Notes: generated by a model from the sequence alone, not told the origin. Shown: positions 145 to 5,547, numbered from the stretch's first letter. The stretch is DNA of 64,000 bases from an uncultured Spirochaetota bacterium (GCA_963733835.1 CAVTER010000004.1:43102-107101), one strand, 5' to 3'. A program made the numbers and translations.

Positions 145-2763
145 TCACCCGTCGGCGAGCCGGCGCTGCTCCAGGAACGCGGCGAGGAACCGTGCCGTGT
201 GCGACCCGCGCCGTACGCGCGCGACCCGCGCCGGGCTGCCCTCGGCCACGACCCGTGCCGCCCGCCTCTCCGCCCTCGGGCCCCAGGTCGATCACCCAGT
301 CCGCCTCGGCGATGATGTCGAGGTTGTGCTCGACGATCACGACGGTGTTGCCCGCGTCCACCAGCCGGTGCAGGACACGGATGAGCTTCTCCACGTCGGC
401 CATGTGCAGGCCGATCGTCGGCTCGTCGAGCAGGTACAGCGTGCGCGGCCCCCCGGCCCTCGCCCGGGCCAGCTCGGTGACCAGCTTGATCCTCTGCGCC
501 TCCCCGCCGCTCAGCGACGGGCTCTGCTGGCCGAGGGTGATGTACCCCAGGCCGACCGCATCGAGCAGCTCCAGGGCGTGGCGCACGCCGGGGTGAAAAT
601 CGAAGAACCTGGCGGCCTCGTCCACGCTCATGGCCAGGACGTCCGCGACGCTCTTTCCCCGGAAGGTCACCGCCAGCGTCTCCTCGTTGAAGCGCCGTCC
701 CCCGCAGGAGTCGCACGGCACGGTCACGTCGGGCAGGAAGCTCATCTCGATGCGCTTCATGCCCTGGCCGTCGCATTCCTCGCACCGGCCCCCGGCCACG
801 TTGAACGAGAACCGGCTCGCCGTGTACCCGCGCATCCGCGCCTCGGGGGAGGCGGCGAACAGGCGGCGCACGTCGTCCCAGATGCCGACGTAGGTGGCGG
901 GGCACGAGCGCGGCGTCTTGCCGATCGGCGTCTGGTCGACCTCGAGCACCCTGCCCACGGCCTGCCAGCCCTCGATGGCACGGCAGCCGTGCAGACCGCC
1001 CGCGGGGGCCGCCCGGCGGCGCGAGCCGGCCACGAGACGGCGCATGTTCTCGTAGAGGACGTTGCGCACGAGGGTGCTCTTGCCGCTGCCGCTCACACCC
1101 GTCACGCAGACCAGCCTCCGCAGGGGCACCTCGACGTCGAGGTCCTTCAGGTTGTGCAGGGCGGCCCCGCGGATGAGAAGCGACGGCGCGGGAGCCTGCC
1201 CCGGCCCGGGAGGCGTCCGCCCCGCGAGGGGATGGCGCAGCGGCTCGCGGAGGAACTTCGCGGTGAGGGACGCGCGGCTTCGCATGACCTGGGCGATGGT
1301 TCCCTGGGCGACCAGCCGTCCGCCGTTCACCCCGCCGCCCGGGACCGAGGTCCACGATGTGCTCGGCCCTGCGGATGGTTTCCTCGTCGTGCTCCACCAC
1401 GACCACGGTGTTTCCCTTCTGCCGCAGGCTGCGCAGGGTGTCCAGGAGCACGAGGTTGTCGCGCGCGTGCAGGCCGATGGTCGGCTCGTCGAGGATGTAG
1501 CAGACCCCGCGGAGGTTGGATCCGAGCTGCGAGGCCAGGCGGATGCGCTGCGCCTCCCCGCCGCTCAGCGTGGGGGCGGAGCGGTCCAGCGACAGGTACG
1601 AGAGGCCCACCTGTTCGAGGAAGGCGGCCCGGCTGTCGATCTCGGCGACGATGTCCCGGGCGATCTCTTTCTCGCGGCCGTCGAGGGCCAGGCCGCGCAT
1701 CTCGGCCGCCATCCCGGACACCGGGAGCCGTGCGTACTCGGCGATGTTCTTCCCGCGGAATCGCACGGCGAGCGCCTCGGGCCGCAGGCGAAGGCCGCCG
1801 CAGGCGGGGCAGGTCTTCTCGGGCCCCTCCCACCAGTCGTTCCACCAGATCTCCTCGCCCGTCTGCTCCGCGTCGAATCCCGAGAGCTGCTGGCCCGTGC
1901 CGAAGCAGGACGGGCACCAGCCGTGCCGGGAGTTGTACGAGAACAGGCGCGGGTCCAGCTCCTCGAAGCTCCTGCCGCACCGCGGGCAGGCCCGCTTCGT
2001 GGAGAAGGTGATCGTGCCCGTGGCCGTGCGCGACGCGCACCACGCCCCTGCCGAACTCCAGGCCCCTTCCCAGCAGCGCGCGAAGGGCCCGTTCGTTCTC
2101 GGGCCGGGCCGTCACCTCGCCCACGGGCAGCTCGATCGTGTGCTCGCGGAACCGGTCCAGCCGGGGCCACGGCGCCGTGGGGACAGCCTCGCCGTCCACG
2201 CGCAGAGCGTCGAACCCCCTGGCCGCGGCCCAGGCGGCGAGGTCGGTGTAGTACCCCTTGCGCGCCGTGACCAGGGGCGCCAGCACGCCCACGCGCCTGC
2301 CCCGGTAGTCGTGCAGCACGCGGGCGAGGATGCTCTCCGCGGTCTGGGGCGGCGATGGGCACGCCGCAGTCGGGGCAGTGCTGCGTGCCCAGCTTGACGA
2401 ACAGCAGCCGCAGGAACGGGTAGATCTCGGTGAGCGTGGCGACGGTGCTCTTCCTGCCGCCCCGGCTGGTGCGCTGCTCGATGGCCACCGTCGGCGGCAC
2501 GCCGAAGACGCCGTCCACGTCGGGCCGTGCGCCGGCTGCACGAACTGCCGGGCGTAGGCGTTCAGGGACTCGAGGTAGCGACGCTGCCCCTCGGCGAAGA
2601 GGATGTCGAAGGCGAGGGTGCTCTTGCCGCTGCCGCTCACGCCCGGTGATCACGCTGAAGGCGTCGCGGGGGATGCGCAGGTCGATGCCCTTCAGGTTGT
2701 GCTCGCGCGCGCGGCGGATGACGATCTCGCCGCCCGCGCGGGCGGGCCGCCGGCTCGGGGCAC
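145..2763 (-). CDS. uvrA: UvrA-family ABC ATPase, downstream tandem paralog B (excinuclease subunit A-like), with at least 4 frame disruptions
   Basis: Minus-strand ORF fragments 41..1330, 117..1766, 1327..2640 and 1565..2653 together cover a full UvrA: [12 protein letters not shown], Walker A ([12 protein letters not shown]), a CPDCG zinc finger, [14 protein letters not shown] signatures, [12 protein letters not shown] and the C-terminus ...[14 protein letters not shown] with its stop near 145. The frame changes at a G homopolymer near 2655. Confidence 0.7.
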
Positions 2764-2829
2764 CCGCCGGCGCTGCTGCCGGCCCGGCCGCCGTGCGTTG
2801 TCGCGCGCGCGGCGATGCGCCGGAAGGCC

Positions 2830-5547
2830 GCCAGCCCCGATCTCCTGAGGGCCGCCCCCGTGCGGCTTTCGGGTCGGCCGCAACCTCCCGCGGGGTGCCC
2901 TCGCAGACCAGCCTGCCGCCCTCCTCGCCGCCCTCGGGCCCGAGGTCGATGATCCAGTCGGAGGCCCGCGATCACGTCGAGGTTGTGCTCGATGACGACG
3001 ACGGAGTGCCCCGCGGCGATGAGCTGTCGGAAGGCGCGCGAGGAGCGTGGCGATGTCGTCGAAGTGCAGGCCCGTGGTCGGCTCGTCGAAGAGGAAGAGG
3101 TGTCGCCCGCGCCGCTCGGTGCCCGGGCGCGGCGAGGTAGCCGGCCAGCTTCAGCCGCTGCGCCTCGCCGCCGCTCAGGGTCGGGACGGGCTGGCCGAGG
3201 CTCAGGTAGCCCAGCCCCACGGCGGCGAGCGGCGCGAGGCCCGCGGGGACCTCGGGCGCTTCGGCGAAGAACTCGCACGCCTCGGTCACGGTCATGTCCA
3301 GCACGTCGGCGACGGACCGCCGGCCCGGCGGATCCGGCCGGCCTGGCCCGGCGGCAGCAGCCGCACCTCGAGCACCTCGGGCCGGTAGCGCCGGCCGTCG
3401 CAGTCGGGGCAGCGCAGGTACACGTCGCTCAGGAACTGCATCTCGATGTGCTCGAACCCGCTGCCGCTGCAGGTCGGGCAGCGGCCCGTGCCCGAGTTGA
3501 AGCTGAAGGTGCCCGCCGTGTAGCCGCGCTCCCGGGACAGCGGCTCGGCGGCGAAGAGCTTCCGGATCGCGTCGAAGGCGCCGACGTAGCTCACGGGGTT
3601 GGAGCGCGCGGTCCTGCCGATCGGCGACTGGTCGACGAGCACGACGTCGTCGACCGGCTCGTGGCCCGCGATCGCCCGGTGCCTGCCCGGCGCCTCCACG
3701 GGCCTGTGCTTGAGCTTGCGCAGGGCGTTGTACAGGACATCCTGCACCAGGGTGGACTTGCCCGAGCCGCTCACGCCCGTGACGCAGACCAGGCGCGTCC
3801 AGCGGGATGTCGCACGTCGATCCCCTTGAGGTTGTGCTCCGCCGCCCCCAGGACGCGCAGCACCCGCCTCCTGCCCGTCGCGGCGCAGGCGCCGCGCCGG
3901 CGCCTGCCGCGGCCGACCGTCCTGCGTCCGCGCCAGGTAGTCGGCGGTCAGCGAGCCGCCGGTTGGCCAGCAGCTCGGCCAGCGTGCCGAAGAAGACGAT
4001 CCGGCCGCCGCGCTCGCCCGGGCCCGGGCCCATGTCCAGCACGAGGTCGGCGGCCCGGATCACGTCGGGGTCGTGCTCGACGACGATGATCGTGTTGCCC
4101 GCGTCGCGCAGGCGCGTGAGCACGCCGATCAGCCTGCCGATGTCGCGGGGGTGAAGGCCGATGCTGGGCTCGTCCAGGACGAACAGGGTGTTCACCAGCG
4201 AGGTGCCCAGCGCCGTGGTCAGGTTGATCCGCTGCACCTCCCCGCCGCGACAGCGTGCGCGACTGCCGGTCCAGCGTGAGGTAGCCCAGGCCCACGTCGA
4301 CGAGGTAGGCGAGCCGCGTCCGGATCTCCGCGAGGAGCATCTCGGCCGCCTCGTCCAGCGGGGCGGGCAGGGCGAGGCGGTCGAAGAGCTGCCGGCAGCG
4401 CTCGATGGGCAGGAGCATGACGTCGTGGATGGAGAGCTTCTCGTCCCCGATCCGCCACAGCAGCGCCTCGGGCTTCAGGCGCGCGCCGCCGCAGGCGGGA
4501 CACGGCTGGTAGGCGCGGTAGCGGGACAGCAGCACGCGGATGTGCATGCGGTAGCTCTTGCCCTCCAGCCACCCGAAGAACCGGCGCGCGCCGTACCACT
4601 TCTTCTCTTCCCACTCGCCCTCGCCGTCGATGACCCACCGCTTCTGCTCGGCCGTCAGCGTCGCCCACGGCACGTCCACGGGCACGCCGCGCCTGCGGGC
4701 GAAGGAGAGCAGGTCGCTCCTGCATCTCCTTGAAGCTCTCGGTCTGCCAGGGCTTCACGGCGCCCGCCGGCGAGGCTCTTCGTCTCGTCGGGGATCACGA
4801 GGCCCCAGTCGATGCCGATGGTCCTGCCGAAGCCCCGGCAGGTGGCGCAGGCGCCGATGGGCGAGTTGAACGAGAAAGGTTGGGCACCGGGTCGCGGTAG
4901 TGGATGTCGCAGTCGGGGCAGTGCAGGTCGGCGGAGAACCGCGACGGCGTCCCGCCGTCCCGCCTGCGCCAGATCGTACACGGCCACCCGGCCCTGGCCG
5001 TGCTGCAGGGCCGCCTCGAGGTCCTCGACGATGCGCGCCCTGTTCTCCTTCGAGACGGCGACCCTGTCCTGGATCACCTCGAGCACAGGGCCATCACGGA
5101 ACGGATGCGCGTGTAGCCCTGCCTCGCCAGGTGCCCGCGCACCTCCTCTTCGCTGAAGTTCGCGCGGGACCGTGACCGGGAAGGTGACCAGGAGCTGCGC
5201 GGCCGGCCGGGCAGGCGCGCGGCGATGCTCTCGGGGGTGTCGCGGCGCACCTCCCTGCCGCAGCTGCCGCAGTACAGCCGCGAGGCCCGGGCGAACAGCA
5301 GCTTGAGGTGGTCGTTCAGCTCGGTCATGGTGCCGACCGTGGAGCGGGAGGTGCGCACGGGGTTTGTCTGGTCGATCGCGATGGCGGGCGGGATGCCGTC
5401 GATCCGGTCCACGCGCGGCTTGTCCATCCGGTCGAGGAACTGCCGCGTGTAGGCGGAGAAGGTCTCCACGTAGCGGCGCTGCCCCTCGGAGTAGATCGTG
5501 TCGAAGGCGAGGGAGGACTTGCCCGAGCCGCTCACGCCGGTGACCAC
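2830..5547 (-). CDS. uvrA: UvrA-family ABC ATPase, upstream tandem paralog A (excinuclease subunit A-like), with at least 5 frame disruptions; 3' boundary uncertain
   Basis: Minus-strand ORFs 5074..5547 ([26 protein letters not shown]), 4655..5086, 3948..4685, 2972..4237 ([11 protein letters not shown]..., [14 protein letters not shown]), 3292..3774 (second Walker [13 protein letters not shown]) and 2637..3278 ([12 protein letters not shown]) reconstruct a UvrA of about 900 aa. In the frame carrying [13 protein letters not shown] find no stop before paralog B begins. Confidence 0.7.

What the first reader, a model, noticed from the sequence alone, without database searches (positions are those of the whole stretch)
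145..5547. Two full-length uvrA paralogs in tandem, with no stop detectable between them in one frame
Both copies contain all UvrA landmarks (two ABC modules, zinc fingers, UvrB-binding-type region). They share the minus strand and are separated by less than about 70 nt. In the frame that carries the C-terminal [12 protein letters not shown] of copy A, translation continues through a Pro/Ala/Arg-rich linker straight into [23 protein letters not shown] of copy B. This is either a UvrA-UvrA tandem fusion (UvrA functions as a dimer) or an artefact of the frequent indels. Tandem UvrA2-type paralogs are often associated with drug or DNA-intercalator resistance rather than nucleotide excision repair.
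Basis: seen in the sequence. Interest (0 to 1): 0.5.

Follow-up and report, generated by a model that had tools for sequence, protein, structure and literature searches.

The report
Single fused double-UvrA gene, frameshift-riddled
The two "tandem uvrA copies" are one gene for a double-length UvrA-like DNA-damage sensor, a fusion already annotated in hundreds of bacterial genomes, and its many frame breaks here are almost certainly sequencing errors.

Summary
Window 145-5619 (minus strand) holds two UvrA-like modules in a row, and one frame is stop-free across the junction, as reported. That alone proves little.

The decisive evidence is comparative. The 120 best database matches are single proteins of 1783-1997 aa (65-80% identity, about 100% coverage), named "excinuclease ABC subunit UvrA". 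A scan of species genomes found at least 594 relatives. Of 57 complete ORFs, 52 are 1749-2350 aa, and the five broken ones appear to come from long-read MAGs.

After about 28 frame corrections, mostly +1 nt, the window gene gives 1815 aa with no stop. It keeps all 463 residues invariant in the family. Other genes in the window are also frameshifted, so the breaks are technical.

The fusion is asymmetric. The N module keeps the DNA-binding insertion domain but has a degenerate UvrB-binding domain. The C module has a canonical UvrB-binding domain but only a 31-32 aa loop where the insertion domain would be.

The inferred reading is a single-chain UvrA pseudo-dimer. It is a new member of a known, experimentally uncharacterised kind. 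The drug-resistance (UvrA2) idea is not supported.

The parts
145..5619 (-). One gene for a fused double UvrA-like protein. The frame-corrected product is 1815 aa. The stop codon is TGA at 147-145. The true start codon lies upstream of 5619 and is unresolved.
   Evidence: Frameshift-aware alignment to P0001 and P0003 is colinear from 5619 to about 145. It gives 80.4% identity to P0003 and no stops after about 28 frame corrections. No ATG, GTG or TTG occurs in 5671-5620.
2847..5619 (-). N-terminal UvrA module (A): NBD-I plus NBD-II, ending with DLGPEGG (2947-2927) and the SRTGAAL C-terminal motif (2867-2853).
   Evidence: TIGR00630 uvra scores 974.8 bits (cut-off 729.8) in one stretch, 1-911 against model positions 2-924 of 924.
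4921..5259 (-). Module A insert between Zn-module cysteines CGSC (5271-5260) and CPDC (4920-4909). This is a degenerate UvrB-binding-domain-like region.
   Evidence: Pfam UvrA_inter matches only marginally and partially: 24.9 bits, model positions 71-106 of 109. Similarity to canonical UvrB-binding domains is about half that of module B across 118 homologues (median score 76 versus 147.5).
4503..4837 (-). Module A insertion domain (the UvrA DNA-binding domain), between CATC (4849-4838) and CPAC (4502-4491).
   Evidence: Pfam UvrA_DNA-bind scores 48.9 bits (cut-off 23.2). The insert is 106-113 aa in all homologues.
2735..2846 (-). Inter-module tether, rich in Ala/Arg/Gly/Pro. It contains at least two compensating indels in this assembly.
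   Evidence: In homologues, 112 of 119 keep SxTGxxL and then have a tether of 19-89 aa (median 30) that is 23% Ala, 14% Arg, 12% Gly and 9% Pro.
148..2734 (-). C-terminal UvrA module (B): [14 protein letters not shown] (2734-2693) through SHTARFL (204-) to the stop.
   Evidence: TIGR00630 scores 1015.4 bits in two stretches, and model positions of about 290-403 are missing. In the PDB alignments, residues 3-282 match TmUvrA 3-284 and residues 307-496 match TmUvrA 381-571.
1989..2365 (-). Module B canonical UvrB-binding domain, between CPDC (2377-2366) and CPRC (1988-1977).
   Evidence: Pfam UvrA_inter scores 81.7 bits and is complete, model positions 1-107 of 109.
1812..1904 (-). Module B short loop in place of the insertion domain, with the family signature [17 protein letters not shown] (1880-1830). 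It lies between CPSC (1916-1905) and CPAC (1811-1800).
   Evidence: There are 31-32 residues here in all 118 homologues, against 106-113 in module A. About 96-120 residues of T. maritima UvrA and 9gxk have no counterpart. The motif is nearly invariant.
5515..5538 (-). Walker A motif 1 (GVSGSGKS). The other three are at 3777-3754, 2643-2620 and 1099-1076. LSGGE signatures are at 4253-4238, 3178-3164, 1568-1554 and 514-500. Walker B motifs are at 4186-4166, 3099-3079, 1502-1482 and 439-419.
   Evidence: Motif search on the frame-corrected protein, mapped back to window coordinates.

Best explanation
Window ~5619-145 (minus strand) is one gene. It encodes a roughly 1.82-kaa protein made of two divergent UvrA-like modules joined by a flexible Ala/Arg/Gly/Pro-rich tether. 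The gene belongs to a widespread family of double-length proteins annotated as 'excinuclease ABC subunit UvrA'. The roughly 28 frame breaks in this copy are assembly or sequencing indels, not biology.

Shown:
- It has four complete ABC ATPase motif sets and six Zn modules (twelve CxxC motifs).
- Module A keeps the DNA-binding insertion domain but has a degenerate UvrB-binding domain.
- Module B keeps a canonical UvrB-binding domain but has a conserved 31-32 aa Trp-rich loop instead of the insertion domain.

Inferred:
- The two modules fold back on each other. They would form within one chain the head-to-head arrangement that two canonical UvrA subunits form.
- This would give an obligatorily asymmetric damage sensor with four ATP sites, one insertion domain and one good UvrB docking site.
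- It would scan DNA like UvrA2 but probably recruits a single UvrB. It probably acts as an accessory sensor alongside the canonical UvrA rather than as a drug-resistance factor.
For: Fusion is real:
- The top 120 hits to the 1822-aa reconstruction are all single proteins of 1783-1997 aa, at 65-80% identity and about 100% coverage.
- Clean contigs call one ORF of 1889 or 1852 aa.
- At least 594 species genomes encode a relative, counted by the module-B loop region, which standalone forms share. Of 57 complete ORFs, 52 are 1749-2350 aa; 48 of them show four Walker A matches and 4 show two or three with the strict pattern. The five short ones are, judging by record names (MFD..., tig...), long-read MAGs.

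Frame breaks are technical:
- After correction there are 0 stops and 80.4% identity to P0003.
- All 463 family-invariant columns and 844 of 846 columns conserved at >=95% are retained, as good as intact homologues at 98.5-99.9%.
- GC3 is about 0.95.
- About 21 of 28 shifts are net +1 nt. From my own knowledge, this is opposite to the deletion bias of bacterial pseudogenes.
- Other genes in the window are also split. A single Complex1_51K hit and a single DAO hit each span several frame switches.

Asymmetry: Pfam and PDB alignments, conserved in 118 homologues.

Tether: length and composition.

All four ATPase sites have Walker A, Walker B, the signature motif and the EH(D/N) motif.
Against: - No error-free read of this organism's gene is available. 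The nearest relative is only about 80% identical, so the exact junction sequence and the start codon are unresolved.
- Frameshift density is about 5 per kb here, against 0-3 per kb in other genes of the window. This is unexplained and leaves some room for a very recent inactivation.
- The frame correction was guided by homologues, which slightly favours similarity.
- The intramolecular pseudo-dimer, the single-UvrB stoichiometry and the accessory role are all inferences. No structure, no experiment and no paper on this family was found.
- Co-occurrence with canonical uvrA and uvrB in the same genome could not be tested.
Confidence: 0.85

Rival explanations
1. This is a true pseudogene: a formerly functional fused uvrA that has been inactivated by many real frameshifts in this organism.
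For: There are about 28-31 frame breaks in 5.5 kb, roughly five times denser than the detectable breaks in the rest of the window. Neighbouring genes appear clean, including GNAT (5672-6187), the aldo-keto reductase (6197-7330) and the response regulator. No start codon can be found.
Against: There are no in-frame stops after correction. All 463 invariant and 844 of 846 near-invariant residues are kept, and GC3 is 0.95. A gene old enough to collect 28 indels should also show substitutions. The indels are mostly +1 insertions. Unrelated genes in the window carry the same kind of breaks. In other genomes the only broken copies are in what appear to be long-read MAGs.
Confidence: 0.08
2. These are two separate, adjacent uvrA paralog genes (A then B). 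Their stop codon, RBS and start codon were erased or hidden by indel errors in the junction.
For: The junction (2880-2725) contains at least two indels, so its true sequence is not known. Standalone UvrA-like proteins with the same short loop as module B exist, for example P0258 (944 aa).
Against: Every one of the 120 closest homologues, and 52 of 57 complete genomic ORFs, is a continuous fusion. The window keeps the family's SxTGxxL tail plus tether arrangement. Neither candidate frame has a stop across the linker. No ATG, RBS and stop arrangement is seen in homologues at 77-80% identity.
Confidence: 0.04
3. The protein is a class II UvrA2-like drug or intercalator resistance protein (like DrrC or Ecm16), here duplicated.
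For: UvrA paralogues are known to confer resistance independently of NER (Ecm16: PMC9328131, PMC10192343). Module A's UvrB-binding region is degenerate.
Against: Module B has a full UvrB-binding domain (81.7 bits), which class II proteins lack by definition (PMC3167621, PMC5128194). Class I structures score far higher than 2vf7 or 7sh1. No biosynthetic cluster, transporter or any other neighbour is conserved next to the gene in 54 loci.
Confidence: 0.03

Closest known systems
Database-annotated double-length 'excinuclease ABC subunit UvrA' proteins (1.78-2.0 kaa). Examples: P0016 on NCBI GCA_049515135.1 JBEKUJ010000001.1; Marinimicrobium alkaliphilum NZ_QGMQ01000005.1; Pollutimonas subterranea; Saccharospirillum alexandrii; Ca. 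Manganitrophus.
   Same: Colinear over the full length at 65-80% identity. Same A-tether-B order, same 31-32 aa [13 protein letters not shown] loop, and same SxTGxxL tail before the tether.
   Different: Only the about 28 frame breaks and the unresolved start codon in this assembly. The nearest relative is 80% identical, so this is a new species-level member.
Canonical class I UvrA (T. maritima 3pih, M. tuberculosis 3zqj, G. stearothermophilus 2r6f/3uwx; TIGR00630).
   Same: Each module has the complete UvrA core: two ABC NBDs and three Zn modules. Each scores above the TIGR00630 cut-off.
   Different: Class I is about 940 aa and works as a symmetric homodimer with two insertion domains and two UvrB-binding domains (PMC3167621, PMC5128194). 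Here two diverged modules are covalently joined. They are 30-46% identical to each other. Between them they carry one insertion domain and one canonical UvrB-binding domain.
Class II UvrA (D. radiodurans UvrA2 2vf7; Ecm16 7sh1; DrrC).
   Same: UvrA paralogues outside the core NER set, sharing the ABC/Zn core.
   Different: Class II lacks the UvrB-binding domain and keeps the insertion domain (PMC5128194). Module B is the reverse. PDB scores are much lower than for class I (633 and 552 bits versus 1170).
NCBIfam NF001885 (PRK00635), a 1809-position 'excinuclease ABC subunit A' model. From memory, this is the double-length UvrA of Chlamydiae.
   Same: Another double-length UvrA architecture that already has a curated model.
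   Different: P0003 scores 1098 bits against a cut-off of 3054. Both of our modules align best to the first half of that model. It is therefore a different family and probably an independent fusion.
Standalone UvrA-like proteins with a short loop in place of the insertion domain (P0258, 944 aa; P0183, 914 aa).
   Same: Same module-B-type architecture: a UvrB-binding-like insert and a short loop between Zn modules.
   Different: Not fused to a module A. They are more divergent, and it was not checked whether they are complete genes.

Membership tests
UvrA superfamily (TIGR00630 / excinuclease ABC subunit A) | Whole-protein HMM score above the curated cut-off. | tested here: met
   Module A scores 974.8 bits and module B 1015.4 bits against a cut-off of 729.8. 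Each single module falls below the stricter NF001503 cut-off of 1147 (990.5 and 1054.1 bits), while full-length P0003 scores 2057.
UvrA superfamily (TIGR00630 / excinuclease ABC subunit A) | Two ABC nucleotide-binding domains per module, each with Walker A, the LSGG[EQ] signature, Walker B and an H-loop. | tested here: met
   Four of each motif are found in the frame-corrected protein.
UvrA superfamily (TIGR00630 / excinuclease ABC subunit A) | Three Zn modules (paired CxxC motifs) per module. | tested here: met
   There are six CxxC motifs in each module at the expected positions.
Class I (NER-type) UvrA | UvrB-binding domain present (Pfam PF17760). | tested here: inconclusive
   Module B meets this: 81.7 bits, complete. 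Module A is marginal: 24.9 bits, positions 71-106 of 109 only. UvrB contact residues were not examined.
Class I (NER-type) UvrA | Insertion (DNA-binding) domain present (Pfam PF17755). | tested here: inconclusive
   Module A meets this (48.9 bits). Module B does not: it has no hit and a 31-32 aa loop instead.
Class I (NER-type) UvrA | Functions with UvrB and UvrC in excision repair; uvrB is present in the genome. | not testable with these tools
   Only 64 kb of this genome is available. No UvrB was noticed by eye in the four largest frame-stitched runs, roughly half the window. No conserved neighbour was found in 54 loci.
Double-length fused UvrA family (1.78-2.0 kaa proteins annotated as UvrA) | One continuous ORF encoding module A, tether and module B. 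| tested here: inconclusive
   In the window the ORF is broken about 28 times. After frame correction there is no stop. In homologues it is continuous. Error-free sequence of this organism is lacking.
Double-length fused UvrA family (1.78-2.0 kaa proteins annotated as UvrA) | Full-length colinear similarity and retention of family-invariant residues. | tested here: met
   80.4% identity to P0003 over 1810 positions. All 463 invariant columns are kept.
Double-length fused UvrA family (1.78-2.0 kaa proteins annotated as UvrA) | Signature loop [17 protein letters not shown] in module B, and an SxTGxxL tail before the tether. | tested here: met
   Window 1880-1830 and 2867-2853. Family conservation is shown.
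Class II UvrA (UvrA2 / DrrC / Ecm16) | Lacks the UvrB-binding domain (PMC3167621, PMC5128194). | tested here: not met
   Module B has a complete UvrA_inter domain. Class II structures are much weaker matches than class I.
NF001885 / PRK00635 double-length UvrA | Score at or above the curated cut-off of 3054 bits. | tested here: not met
   P0003 scores 1097.7 bits; modules A and B score 550.5 and 566.7 bits.

The most novel reading that the evidence does not exclude
The double-length family, including this gene, is an obligatorily asymmetric single-chain 'UvrA heterodimer' with division of labour. Module A would contribute the only damage-sensing insertion domain, and module B the only competent UvrB dock. 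The protein would then load one UvrB on one defined side of a lesion, or feed a specialised repair route. This would be a mode of bacterial damage recognition that has apparently not been studied, despite its presence in at least 594 species.
Probability: 0.35. Interest if true: 0.55.

Novelty: new member of a known kind. Interest (0 to 1): 0.25.

Why it matters
For annotating this window, the result is that 145-5619 should be called as one uvrA-family gene and flagged as frameshifted by assembly error. It should not be called as two genes or as a string of pseudogene fragments.

More broadly, the family is large and spans many phyla, yet I found no paper describing it. Its built-in asymmetry is one insertion domain, one canonical UvrB-binding domain and four intact ATPase sites in a single chain. 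That makes it a natural 'tethered heterodimer'. It could help separate the roles of the two UvrA protomers and of the two UvrB molecules, which is hard to do with the symmetric homodimer.

Tried and rejected
- Gapped tblastn glossed over the frameshifts. I replaced it with ungapped chaining and then with a frameshift-aware dynamic-programming alignment.
- Five literature searches and look-ups in five further papers found nothing on fused or double UvrA. They did supply the class I/II definitions and domain boundaries.
- A synteny test with neighbours of P0004 and P0016 found nothing shared with the window.
- Clustering of flanking ORFs in 54 loci found no conserved partner gene. The largest family is present in 11 loci of related taxa.
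- L005, a Spirochaetota MAG with a broken ORF, is only 78.6% identical in DNA, so it is not the source organism.
- A Pfam scan by DNA reference failed because of stop codons. I redid it with frame-stitched sequences.
I reran it with homologue rows only.
- Structure prediction was not attempted. The 1200-aa limit excludes the full chain, and a truncated construct could not test module pairing.

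
Full report
**What is in the sequence**

A three-frame translation of the minus strand of window 1-5800 shows UvrA-type sequence spread over all three frames. There are two successive modules. The first begins at [11 protein letters not shown] (5619). The second begins at [14 protein letters not shown] (2734) and ends at ...[19 protein letters not shown], followed by TGA at 147-145.

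This has little discriminating power. Two of the three minus-strand frames have no stop anywhere in 2640-2972, and the third has stops only at 2694 and 2652. The region is 72-74% G+C, so stop-free stretches of this length are common.

**Is it one gene or two?**

I joined the fragments by hand into an 1822-aa sequence and searched the 5.8-billion-protein collection. All 120 listed hits are single proteins of 1783-1997 aa. They are 65-80% identical and cover 95-100% of the query. Where a source gives a name, it is 'excinuclease ABC subunit UvrA'. The named sources include MAGs of Spirochaetia, Kiritimatiellae, Nitrospirae/Manganitrophus, Geobacter, Verrucomicrobiia, Burkholderiales and Gammaproteobacteria.

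On clean contigs the gene is called as one ORF:
- 1889 aa on a 503-kb ENA contig.
- 1852 aa on NCBI GCA_049515135.1 and on a JGI contig.

I then scanned one genome per species (185,579 species) with a profile of a module-B-specific region. They include cultured Marinimicrobium alkaliphilum, Pollutimonas subterranea, Saccharospirillum alexandrii, Teredinibacter and Gilvimarinus.

Among the 80 loci fetched, 57 have the ORF complete from stop to stop. Of these, 52 are 1749-2350 aa; 48 have four Walker A matches and four have two or three with the strict pattern I used. The other five are 296-1252 aa. Judging by their record names (four 'MFD...' and one 'tig...'), those five come from long-read MAGs. 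No genome showed a clean two-gene version. The fusion is therefore real, old and widespread.

**The frame breaks**

A frameshift-aware alignment of P0001 and P0003 to the minus strand is colinear from 5619 to about 145. It needs 28-31 frame corrections. About 21 of the 28 with P0003 are a net +1 nt, mostly in G/C-rich context.

The corrected protein has these properties:
- It is 1815 aa with no in-frame stop and 80.4% identity to P0003.
- It has four GVSGSGKS, four LSGGE, four Walker B and four EH(D/N) motifs, plus twelve CxxC motifs.
- It keeps all 463 columns that are invariant among the 120 homologues.
- It keeps 844 of the 846 columns that are at least 95% conserved. That is as good as intact family members left out in turn (98.5-99.9%).
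- Third-position G+C is about 0.95.

This is the conserved UvrA C-terminal SxTGxxL motif, present in 112 of 119 homologues. The frame returns somewhere between 2809 and 2725.

The real tether in the family is 19-89 aa long (median 30) and rich in Ala/Arg/Gly/Pro. Fully extended, that is long enough to span a UvrA dimer; this last point is my inference.

**Errors or pseudogene?**

A codon-position G+C model finds about 24 frameshift-like frame switches in the other 58 kb. Two cases were confirmed with Pfam:
- One Complex1_51K hit (positions 1-148 of 150) runs across the switches at 17511, 17613, 17759 and 17840.
- One DAO hit (positions 1-352 of 353) runs across those at 51777 and 52216.

Indels are therefore a property of the assembly, not of this gene alone. 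Three further points argue against a pseudogene. There is no substitutional decay. The indels show an insertion bias, whereas bacterial pseudogenes are deletion-biased (my own knowledge). The only broken copies elsewhere are in what look like long-read MAGs.

The density here (about 5 per kb) is still higher than elsewhere, and several neighbouring genes look clean. This remains unexplained and keeps a small probability on recent inactivation. The start codon is also unresolved. No ATG, GTG or TTG occurs in 5671-5620, and the ATG at 5689 is in the frame of the upstream GNAT gene.

**Anatomy and likely mechanism**

Each module scores above the TIGR00630 UvrA cut-off (975 and 1015 bits against 730). 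The best solved relatives are class I UvrAs: 3pih, 9gxk, 3zqj and 2r6f. The modules are 30-46% identical to each other. They differ in a complementary way:

| | Module A (N-terminal) | Module B (C-terminal) |
|---|---|---|
| Insertion / DNA-binding domain | Present: PF17755, 48.9 bits; 106-113 aa insert | Absent: no PF17755 hit; 31-32 aa loop |
| UvrB-binding domain | Marginal and partial: PF17760, 24.9 bits | Complete: PF17760, 81.7 bits |

In module B, residues 283-306 replace about 96-120 residues of T. maritima UvrA and 9gxk. The 31-32 aa loop carries the near-invariant motif [17 protein letters not shown] in all 118 homologues examined.

Domain definitions come from PMC3167621 (UvrB-binding domain 129-255 and insertion domain 290-411 in M. 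tuberculosis UvrA) and PMC5128194. The latter describes a head-to-head dimer in which the insertion domain and a Zn finger are needed for damage recognition, and notes that class II lacks the UvrB-binding domain.

From this I infer a single-chain pseudo-dimer with four active ATP sites, one insertion domain and one good UvrB dock. That is an asymmetric version of UvrA2, likely recruiting one UvrB. The inference is untested.

No gene family is conserved next to the gene in 54 loci, and the neighbours of two relatives share nothing with this window. Context therefore gives no functional hint and no support for a drug-resistance cluster.

**Comparison with what is known**

The gene is a member of the double-length family that databases already name UvrA. 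It is not a class II UvrA2/DrrC/Ecm16 protein, because module B has the domain whose absence defines class II. It is also not a member of NCBIfam NF001885, a curated 1809-position double UvrA model. The score is 1098 bits against a cut-off of 3054, and both modules align best to that model's first half. From memory, that model represents Chlamydiae.

Standalone proteins with a module-B-like short loop also exist (P0258, P0183). A representative search with the loop profile gave 136 clusters at E<=1e-30 and 1569 at E<=1e-10. Most full-length ones are 1.75-2.3 kaa.

I found no paper on the fused family in the held library. The review that may classify it (Goosen & Moolenaar 2008) is not held.

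**Verdict**

'Two tandem paralogs' and the UvrA2 drug-resistance link are not supported.
- The gene is a new member, about 80% identical to its nearest relative, of a known and annotated but apparently unstudied kind. It is damaged here by assembly indels.
- Interest is low to moderate. The asymmetric architecture of the family is the only part that might repay follow-up.

Noticed in passing
window 15770-18402, 20546, 22050, 34220-34811, 43064-43338, 51776-52798, 55946, 57021, 62636: Frameshift-like frame switches occur inside other genes, so the whole assembly carries indels. Pfam confirmed two cases. One Complex1_51K hit spans the switches at 17511, 17613, 17759 and 17840. One DAO hit spans those at 51777 and 52216.
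   Followed up: partly
window 1-5619 versus 5619-7330 and 13286-15769: Indel density is very uneven. It is about 5 per kb in the fused uvrA, but there are no detectable breaks in the adjacent GNAT (5672-6187, minus strand), the aldo-keto reductase (6197-7330, minus strand) or the 2.5-kb cyclase-like gene (13286-15769, plus strand). The cause is unknown; possibilities include local coverage, a contig end or G+C content.
   Followed up: no
window 5620-5700: No ATG, GTG or TTG occurs in any frame between the GNAT stop (TAA at 5674-5672) and the first conserved UvrA residues at 5619. The ATG at 5689 is in the GNAT frame. The uvrA start is probably hidden by another indel, or it overlaps the GNAT 3' end.
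   Followed up: partly
window ~15900-23350 (+): Reading the translation by eye, there is a NuoE-like, NuoF-like and [FeFe]-hydrogenase (HydA-like) gene cluster. It is followed by a HydA-like Fe-S domain fused to a histidine kinase, and then by response regulators. This looks like a sensory-hydrogenase signalling unit. Only the NuoF-like part was checked with Pfam.
   Followed up: partly
window 1-103 (-): The N-terminus of a GntR-type regulator (…[24 protein letters not shown]) runs off the start of the window, just downstream of the uvrA stop. This was read by eye only.
   Followed up: no
P0258 (944 aa), P0183 (914 aa) from the representative search: Standalone UvrA-like proteins exist that have a UvrB-binding-type insert but only a short loop where the insertion domain should be. 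They are a possible unfused relative of module B and a clue to how the fusion arose.
   Followed up: partly
L005, L009, L045, L057 (MFD... MAGs) and L022 (tig... MAG): In other public genomes, the only broken copies of the fused uvrA are in these MAGs, which their record names suggest are long-read assemblies. Their ORFs are 296-1252 aa instead of about 1850. This suggests the long, very G+C-rich gene is a recurrent casualty of long-read consensus errors.
   Followed up: partly
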